Part shown: positions 13,109 through 13,245 of the stretch, piece by piece
Layout of the letters: every line of letters starts with the position of its first letter
How positions within the stretch are numbered: the first letter of the stretch is position 1
From: Zootoca vivipara
Taxonomy: Eukaryota
DNA length: 64,000 nt
Reading direction: 5' to 3'
Assembly (NCBI RefSeq): GCF_963506605.1
Contig: NC_083280.1
Coordinates: 16,926,001-16,990,000, forward strand
Notes under the pieces: model-generated
Told to the model about the DNA's origin: nothing
Seen by the model: only the letters and a program-made list of their open reading frames with translations
Databases searched by the model: none
Translations under genes and position numbers: made by a program

Positions 13109-13245
13109 CAGGGTTTCCCAAACTTGGGTCTCCAGTTGTTTTGGGACTACAGTTCCCATCATTCCTGACCACTGCTCCTACTAACTACAGGAAGATGGGA
13201 GTTGTAGTGCAAAAAGAGCTGGAGACCCAAGTTTGGGAAGCCCTG
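13109..13245. mobile_element. Palindromic ~135 bp hAT-type MITE (ACTACA..TCCCA family)
   Basis: cagggtttcccaaacttgggtctccag...ctggagacccaagtttgggaagccctg; the whole element folds back on itself. Confidence 0.8.

What the first reader, a model, noticed from the sequence alone, without database searches (positions are those of the whole stretch)
13109..13245. Abundant palindromic hAT MITE disperses the ACTACAnnTCCCA motif used by the bidirectional promoter
Seen: this element has an exact ACTACAgtTCCCA (13146..13158) and an inverted ACTACAacTCCCA (13196..13208). Exact motifs also occur at 22747 and 59002. Full or degenerate family members lie at ~13440, 21087, 22726, 22975, 38523, 50950, 57020, 57410, 58965 and 63110, roughly ten in 64 kb. 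The genuine promoter has the same motif at 26782. Known: ACTACAnnTCCCA is the ZNF143/THAP11(Ronin)-HCF1-associated motif enriched at vertebrate bidirectional promoters; THAP domains derive from DNA transposase DNA-binding domains. Inference: the MITE is a mobile paired (convergent) motif cassette that could seed cryptic promoters or act as a genome-wide decoy. The MITE continues TCATCC rather than the nnATGC of the extended consensus, so binding is uncertain.
Basis: partly seen in the sequence, partly recalled or inferred. Interest (0 to 1): 0.7.

Follow-up and report, generated by a model that had tools for sequence, protein, structure and literature searches.

The report
Jumping DNA hoarding host promoter sites
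A tiny hairpin-shaped jumping element, present in an estimated 200,000 copies in this lizard genome, carries in each arm a near-complete copy of a common promoter signal and has kept it while its ends changed repeatedly, which suggests the host proteins that read this signal likely help it jump, while the inserted copies likely stay silent.

Summary
13109-13245 is a 137-bp palindromic non-autonomous hAT (Buster/Charlie-type) MITE in intron 1 of a serpin gene that shares a CpG-island promoter head-to-head with PDCD10. Genome-wide there are 122,783 exact ACTACAnnTCCCA sites (control 651). In 1.19 Mb sampled, 125 of 145 lie in this clan and 19 in a second, unrelated palindromic family.

At least eight young subfamilies plus older ones have different TIRs around one core. 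The motif is about 20-30% less diverged than neighbouring positions (significant in old copies, borderline in young). Only 19 of 195 copies keep both exact motifs. Copies sit outside CpG islands and their CpGs decay tenfold faster, so promoter seeding is unsupported.

Best reading: THAP11/ZNF143 binding favoured the element's own amplification; binding and this benefit are untested. A neutral promoter relic is the main rival. Precedents exist (MLT1J, E2F MITEs, CMITEs).

The parts
13109..13245 (+). Palindromic non-autonomous hAT MITE, subfamily with CAGGGTTTCCCAAAC ends, about 10% diverged from its closest relatives
13101..13108 (+). Left target half ATCTAGAT (Buster/Charlie-type nTCTAGAn); right flank 13246-13253 does not repeat it
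13146..13170 (+). Left-arm site: exact THAP11 13-mer (13146-13158) inside a ZNF143 SBS2-type 25-mer, 20 of 23 informative positions
13184..13208 (-). Right-arm site: exact 13-mer (13196-13208), SBS2-type 25-mer 18 of 23 (tail decayed)
13458..13559 (-). Old, degenerate clan copy, no exact motif
21087..21222 (+). Young clan copy (CAGGCATCCCC ends), no exact motif
22729..23007 (+). Old clan copy, apparently split by about 160 bp of other DNA; exact motif at 22747, one-mismatch inverted motif at 22978-22990
38523..38658 (+). Young clan copy with perfect 8-bp TSD CTGTAGTC
45432..45506 (+).
50946..51040 (-). Old clan copy
57028..57130 (-). Old clan copy
57422..57586 (+). Very degenerate clan copy in two weak pieces (E about 1e-3)
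58966..59065 (+). Truncated young clan copy; site at 59002 scores 21 of 23
63107..63230 (-). Old clan copy
62961..63051 (-). Fragments of the second motif-bearing palindromic family (family D, provisionally Harbinger-like)
26001..27500 (.). CpG-island promoter between the serpin gene (minus strand) and PDCD10 (plus strand)
26742..26766 (-). Promoter SBS2-type site, 21 of 23; overlapped by an SBS1-type site on the plus strand at 26738-26755 (15 of 17)
26782..26806 (+). Promoter site with exact 13-mer, 18 of 23
26410..26603 (-). Likely non-coding first exon of the serpin gene, GT donor at 26409-26408; first coding exon lies about 18 kb left of the window, so the MITE is in intron 1
   Evidence: (one contig of run X1, RNA only by guess)

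Best explanation
The element is one ordinary intronic copy of a very abundant clan of non-autonomous hAT MITEs whose two arms each carry a near-complete THAP11/ZNF143 promoter site, and the clan likely kept that site because binding of these host proteins would help a copy to be mobilised, not because inserted copies act as promoters. Shown: 136-138 bp hairpin, 8-bp duplications at nYCTAGRn targets, many subfamilies that replaced the TIR in both arms around one core, a site too complete for chance, the same site in both arms of a second unrelated family, fewer changes in the fixed motif letters than in neighbours. Inferred: Charlie/SPIN-type transposases supplied in trans cut the element; THAP11 (a dimer that loops motif-bearing DNA in vitro) or ZNF143 binds the core and would hold the 136-bp element nucleosome-free or bring its ends together; copies with a damaged motif would leave fewer daughters; after insertion most copies are likely methylated and inert.
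For: hAT identity: 61 of 82 high-scoring copies have a 7-8/8 TSD, target nYCTAGRn; 21 of 21 very young copies have TSDs. Site quality: consensus arms 19-21 of 23, most at 21; 0 of 1.54 M masked background positions reach 21 and 3 reach 19; tail given the 13-mer p about 1e-3 to 5e-3; 46,915 genome sites fit the first 21 positions, control 0; 30 other abundant repeat consensuses reach at most 17. Core kept while ends change: 26 of 44 TIR columns vary among eight consensuses vs 1 of 22 motif columns. Shared (propagated) variants: 4 of 154 motif columns vs 40 of 464 other internal columns, but 9 of 28 nn columns. Old copies: context-corrected motif/neighbour divergence 0.74-0.78, bootstrap intervals exclude 1; neutral simulation 0.94-0.98. 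Family D: motif 0.14 vs flanks 0.19-0.23, nn 0.25. The change that completes the optimal ZNF143 tail is 2.3x its sister transversion (676 vs 294) against 1.1x and 1.2x at two controls. THAP11 gene intact. THAP11 binds the 13-mer alone in vitro (PMC3627581) and loops DNA with two motifs (PMC10329844). Inert after insertion.
Against: No binding or transposition data. The most abundant young subfamily (66 of 115 young copies) has lost the first motif letter in one arm and often damages the ZNF143 tail in the other; an old subfamily has ACTCCA in one arm. Strict private mutations: motif vs all other regions 0.74, p 0.09; vs the spacer 0.93, p 0.75; a smaller sample gave 1.90% vs 1.96% for the outer arm. 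My eye tally of independent master-level changes (2 in 11 motif sites, 15 in 25 others) gives only p 0.07. The CTCCAG block is also invariant among consensuses. In old copies the block shows no excess of mirrored changes (7 vs 6.9), so part of the slower decay may arise after insertion, which this model does not predict. The tail (positions 14-20) is the most variable internal part, so ZNF143's full site is not what is conserved. The family D profile was seeded on motif-bearing copies, which biases its test. The excess of ATGC variants could come from one amplified master or local templating.
Confidence: 0.45

Rival explanations
1. Neutral relic: the core was taken once from a ZNF143/THAP11-driven promoter (of an autonomous transposon or a host gene) and has since ridden along; the apparent conservation comes from sequence-context mutation rates, subfamily structure and small numbers of master events.
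For: Accounts for the non-chance match without a present role. Motif-breaking masters did amplify. Strict singleton test not significant. C>A counts inside vs outside the core differ little (251 vs 294, p 0.07). Unreviewed scan notes report such motifs in several unrelated DNA transposons, often as promoter leftovers (leads only).
Against: Slower motif decay survives a trinucleotide correction and a pipeline simulation. nn letters vary while fixed letters do not, in two families. No parent element with this core was found.
Confidence: 0.3
2. Host-level effect after insertion: many copies are bound by THAP11/ZNF143 in place and act as weak promoters, enhancers, looping anchors or a decoy sink, so the motif is preserved by host selection or by protection from mutation.
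For: Slower decay is clearest in old copies and not explained by mirrored master variants. Human MLT1J copies with SBS2 are bound in vivo by ZNF143 and one locus by THAP11 (PMC3627581). About 123,000 sites against about 4,700 ZNF143 peaks in human cells (bioRxiv 10.1101/2024.05.13.594008) could titrate the factors.
Against: No CpG islands at 11 window copies or 37 ATGC-gain copies; 10x CpG decay; a 20-30% deficit would need a large share of about 200,000 copies under selection; 89 of 195 copies have no exact motif.
Confidence: 0.15
3. The motif is the transposase's own subterminal binding site and resembles the host motif by coincidence.
For: Symmetric position about 37 bp inside each end, next to another invariant block; hAT BED domains read short subterminal repeats (recalled).
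Against: It is a 21-of-23 match to a 25-bp host consensus, stays fixed while the TIRs that define transposase specificity change, and recurs in a family with different ends and no 8-bp TSD signature.
Confidence: 0.1

Closest known systems
hAT-N1_AC and other 'orphan' non-autonomous hATs of Anolis carolinensis (Novick et al. 2010, PMC3014272; passages and part 1 of the hAT section read)
   Same: 135 bp, 57-bp inverted arms, NYYTARRN 8-bp TSD, more than 1,000 copies, similarity to Charlie/SPIN-type autonomous elements only in the TIR. TIRs of subfamilies here resemble the listed hAT-HT1, hAT-HT2, hAT-HT3 and SPIN TIRs (by eye).
   Different: The internal sequence is not in the text I saw, so homology is untested; the parts read do not mention a transcription-factor site; copy number here is far higher.
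MLT1J LTR elements carrying SBS2 in mammals (Ngondo-Mbongo et al. 2013, PMC3627581; passages read)
   Same: A transposable element that spreads the ZNF143/THAP11 SBS2 motif; proposed there as a source of promoter sites.
   Different: Retroelement, bound in vivo; here a DNA-transposon MITE, two sites per copy, about 10^5 sites, binding untested.
Plant MITEs amplifying E2F, bZIP60, PIF3 and TCP motifs (PMC5950925; passages read; Henaff 2014 known only as cited there)
   Same: MITEs hold a large share of a transcription factor's genomic motifs.
   Different: Read there as raw material for host regulation; here the signal points to a benefit for the element itself.
CMITEs of Acropora corals (PMC2872659; abstract and one discussion section read)
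   Same: Internal region more conserved between families than the TIRs; proposed role of the core in transposition and cross-mobilisation.
   Different: piggyBac-type; no host factor named for the core in the parts read.
M4 / TBS / SBS2 promoter element (PMC5006282, PMC3627581, PMC3668359, bioRxiv 10.1101/2024.05.13.594008; passages read)
   Same: Exact 13-mer and 21 of 23 consensus positions.
   Different: C rather than the commoner G at position 18; no CpG island; convergent instead of the divergent pair at the local promoter.

Membership tests
hAT MITE, Buster/Charlie type | 8-bp target-site duplication | tested here: met
   Family: 48 perfect and 13 one-mismatch of 82 high-scoring copies. 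The 13109 copy itself: 3 of 8, not met.
hAT MITE, Buster/Charlie type | YARNG termini and nTCTAGAn-like target | tested here: met
   CAGGG/CAGGC/CAGTG ends; target nYCTAGRn; criteria from PMC3014272.
hAT MITE, Buster/Charlie type | Short, non-coding, high copy number | tested here: met
   136-138 bp; 195 copies in 1.19 Mb, 165,000-236,000 extrapolated.
hAT MITE, Buster/Charlie type | Autonomous partner with the same TIR | tested here: inconclusive
   30 of 74 hAT dimerisation-domain loci examined (1.5-kb flanks): only nested MITE copies; 21 of 21 variant hits for the youngest TIR were MITEs. Other TIRs not searched.
hAT-N1_AC | Internal sequence homology | not testable with these tools
   Only length, arm length, TSD and first 20 bp are in the table read.
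THAP11 binding site (TBS/M4) | ACTACAnnTCCCA | tested here: met
   Both arms of this copy; THAP11 gene intact in the genome.
ZNF143 SBS2 site | ACTACAN + YWCCCRNMATSCMYYRCR | tested here: met
   Consensus arms 19-21 of 23; this copy 20 and 18; promoter sites 21 and 18. Consensus counting only, no weight matrix. ZNF143 gene not looked for.
THAP11/ZNF143 site | Occupancy in vivo | not testable with these tools
   No ChIP, CUT&Tag or ATAC data available.
M4-type CpG-island promoter | Unmethylated CpG island | tested here: not met
   CpG o/e 0.16 around the copy vs 0.82 at the promoter; CpG transitions 10x in young copies.
M4-type CpG-island promoter | Transcription start at the element | tested here: inconclusive
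   About 6% of three RNA runs laid; few reads, with sister-copy letters; the real promoter was barely covered too.
microRNA precursor | Rfam family at gathering score | tested here: not met
   Best 49.7 bits vs cut-off 140; generic hairpin hits.
PIF/Harbinger MITE (second family D) | 3-bp TNA duplication and GG(C/T)CAC-type ends | tested here: inconclusive
   32 ends give flank consensus C-T-R-A before the end; only 4 copies had both ends and none shows a clean duplication. Criteria recalled.

The most novel reading that the evidence does not exclude
Vertebrate MITEs of different superfamilies have converged on carrying THAP11/ZNF143 sites as a transposase-independent 'loading core': the host dimer bridges or opens the two arms, letting one core swap its ends and ride successive waves of horizontally arriving transposases, and leaving this lizard with some 25 times more sites than there are ZNF143 peaks in human cells, enough to titrate these essential factors.
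Probability: 0.25. Interest if true: 0.8.

Novelty: new variant of a known kind. Interest (0 to 1): 0.5.

Why it matters
Why some MITEs outnumber their autonomous partners by orders of magnitude and outlive them is an open question; a named host factor binding a conserved core makes it directly testable in a simple transposition assay. Separately, the genome holds about 123,000 copies of one of the most conserved vertebrate promoter motifs, about 99% of sampled ones in two MITE families. That is a natural experiment on how THAP11 and ZNF143 tell real promoters from look-alikes, and a warning for motif-based promoter annotation in reptiles. The single copy at 13109 is itself ordinary.

Tried and rejected
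Autonomous partner: none in 30 of 74 transposase loci or among 21 TIR-variant hits; the strand guess was wrong for three loci, so their alignments were ignored. One search used right-arm motif columns shifted by one; its p-values are discarded and the test was redone. My early reading of fully neutral decay was weakened by the larger sample. Arm-to-arm repair after insertion: no excess of mirrored changes in old copies. ATGC-gain copies as new promoters: 0 of 37 in CpG islands, ages like the C>A controls. Expression: no RNA holder listed; raw-read lay too shallow to show or exclude a start. Empty-site allele: no contig joined across the element in four runs, but both junctions were seen in other samples; absence not shown. 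miRNA family: below cut-offs. Literature: ten searches found no paper linking this motif to a reptile or amphibian MITE; six exact arm words gave 0 papers; Repbase/Dfam, subscription journals and supplements were not seen, and the Anolis consensus may sit in a supplement. I recall a homologous frog hAT MITE with the full ATGC tail; this could not be checked and is not used as evidence.

Full report
Observation. The sequence is as described: exact ACTACAnnTCCCA at 13146 (+) and 13196-13208 (-), also at 22747, 59002 and 26782, within a 137-bp palindrome with 53-nt arms that folds far better than shuffles (z -11.5). A profile finds the ten other places listed plus 45432-45506, and nothing in reversed DNA. 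This copy's tails read TCATTC and TCTTCC, and it has only the left half of a target duplication.

Setting. The genome is a 1.44-Gb lizard assembly (lizard inferred from the repeat landscape, and so named in unreviewed scan notes). PDCD10 exons lie on the plus strand from 40674 and serpin exons on the minus strand left of the window; SERPINI1 is my recalled name from sequence and synteny. A CpG island at 26001-27500 lies between them, with GT donors facing outward at 26409 and 26983; one contig of a run guessed to be RNA covers 26410-26603 and stops matching at the donor. The MITE is therefore in serpin intron 1, 13 kb from the promoter. The promoter has a divergent pair of sites scoring 21 and 18 of 23.

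What the element is. The 30 closest relatives give a 136-bp consensus with 8-bp duplications. In 119 random 10-kb stretches, 61 of 82 high-scoring copies have a 7-8/8 duplication with target nYCTAGRn, the Charlie/SPIN pattern tabulated for Anolis (PMC3014272), whose hAT-N1_AC has the same length and arm size. There are 195 copies in 1.19 Mb, 165,000-236,000 genome-wide depending on scaling. No autonomous partner was found.

Scale of dispersal. The genome holds 122,783 exact 13-mers against 651 for the reversed pattern. Of 145 in the sample, 125 are in this clan, 19 in a second family and 1 elsewhere. Of 195 copies, 19 keep both exact motifs, 87 one, 89 none.

PMC5006282 (passages) quotes the Staf consensus YWCCCRNMATSCMYYRCR, which allows ATCC. 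With ACTACAN in front (SBS2, PMC3627581), consensus arms score 19-21 of 23, most often 21, equal to the best promoter site; 0 of 1.54 million masked background positions reach 21. Given the 13-mer, the tail match has p about 1e-3 to 5e-3. 46,915 sites match the first 21 positions; 30 other abundant repeat consensuses reach at most 17. This is consensus counting, not a weight matrix; promoter-like sites here tend to have G at position 18. In vitro THAP11 binds the 13-mer alone and ZNF143 does not; ZNF143 tolerates much degeneracy outside TGGGA and has about 4,700 peaks in human cells. THAP11 is intact in this genome.

One core, many ends. Eight young subfamilies (0.4-11% from consensus, three to 35 members for all but one) and at least two old groups (about 23%) share the core. 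Among eight consensuses 26 of 44 TIR columns vary but 1 of 22 motif columns, and TIR changes are mirrored in both arms. This is the CMITE pattern (PMC2872659). A second palindromic family of about 160-200 bp (41 copies in the sample) has different ends, no similarity beyond the motif, and three sites of 19 of 23, the outer two facing outward; Harbinger-like by recalled criteria, unconfirmed. In the unselected tail the two families agree at 3 of 4 fixed but 1 of 8 degenerate positions (p 0.07).

Does the motif decay more slowly? One search had a column error and is discarded. In 112 old copies the context-corrected ratio is 0.78 against the invariant flanking block (bootstrap 0.66-0.93), 0.74 against the tail and 0.78 against the spacer; a neutral simulation through the same pipeline gives 0.94-0.98 (single master, so subfamily mixing is not modelled). 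In 115 young copies strict private changes give 0.74 (p 0.09), 0.93 against the spacer, and 0.67 (p 0.01) when doubletons count; shared variants occupy 4 of 154 motif columns, 40 of 464 other internal columns and 9 of 28 nn columns. Family D shows the same direction but with a seeding bias. Genome-wide, C>A at a core position and at tail position 18 are close (251 vs 294), while C>G at position 18, which completes ATGC, is in twofold excess (676; controls 278:251 and 54:46, the last counted by hand from 100 of 102 listed hits). Against selection: the commonest young subfamily has one arm starting CCTACA and often TCTTCC in the other, and an old group has ACTCCA. The signal is real but modest, and I cannot place it firmly before or after insertion.

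Are copies promoters? Nothing suggests so. CpG o/e is 0.07-0.40 around 11 window copies vs 0.82 at the promoter; CpG transitions in young copies are 10 times other C/G transitions, measured at two CpG sites; none of 37 ATGC-gain copies is in an island. HCFC1, the partner of these factors, acts almost only at CpG-island promoters (PMC3668359, passages). RNA reads were too shallow to decide.

Mechanism. I commit to selection on the element: a THAP11/ZNF143 site in the core likely raised the chance of mobilisation, so it was kept through TIR replacements and reached in a second family. THAP11 dimers loop two motif-bearing DNAs in vitro, while ZNF143 does not (PMC10329844, abstract and one section), which offers a concrete route to end pairing; this step, binding itself and the benefit are untested (0.45). 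Rivals: neutral promoter relic (0.30), host-level binding after insertion (0.15), transposase site by coincidence (0.10).

Novelty. Transposons spreading this motif (MLT1J), MITEs amplifying factor motifs (PMC5950925; PMC12676858, abstract and passages) and conserved MITE cores are known. Ten searches of the open library found no report of this motif in reptile MITEs; repeat databases and supplements were not seen. bioRxiv 10.1101/2023.09.27.559875 (passages) added nothing used here. Unreviewed scan notes describe a similar end-swapping core in another genome; I had found the pattern before reading them, and they are not evidence. Verdict: new variant of a known kind, interest 0.5.

Noticed in passing
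G000 genome-wide; window 62961-63051; L032, L118, L121, L130, L138: Second old palindromic MITE family (about 35,000-50,000 copies) with three ACTACAnnTCCCA-type sites, outer pair divergent like the real promoter; superfamily unconfirmed.
   Followed up: partly
G000 genome-wide (L141-L170): Of 1,390 ACTACAnnTCCCAnnATGC sites, 676 have the clan's TC spacer; only 2 of the first 30 (L141, L163) lie in CpG-island DNA, so even the full consensus mostly marks repeats here.
   Followed up: yes
window 22813-22975: About 160 bp of relatively CpG-rich DNA separates two halves of an old MITE copy; origin unknown.
   Followed up: no
window 13557-13600: A 42-bp stretch is skipped in contigs of two DNA runs (X15, X18), a likely polymorphic deletion at the junction of an old clan copy and a neighbouring hAT end.
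   Followed up: no
L228-L248: Very young subfamily (CAGTGTTTCTCAACC ends, about 1% diverged, perfect TSDs) implies recent transposase activity although no matching autonomous element was found; 12 of 21 variant hits share the same T>G change, at either end.
   Followed up: partly
L219:877-1695 (-); sites at L219:1756 and 1900: Intact single-exon THAP11 with alanine/glycine-rich linker; its own promoter has two M4-type sites (20 of 23 each).
   Followed up: partly
L151, L153, L154, L156: Four ATGC-gain copies from different subfamilies share a second adjacent change making the palindrome ATGCAT, hinting at templated mutation.
   Followed up: no
window 1001-2000: A second CpG-rich patch lies inside a palindromic repeat (1409-1750), not at a gene start seen here.
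   Followed up: no
L051-L058, L074, L077: Several long open hAT-derived frames (639-1170 aa), likely domesticated ZBED-type genes, and small multi-copy broken hAT families (L061/62/67; L070/71/73/78).
   Followed up: no
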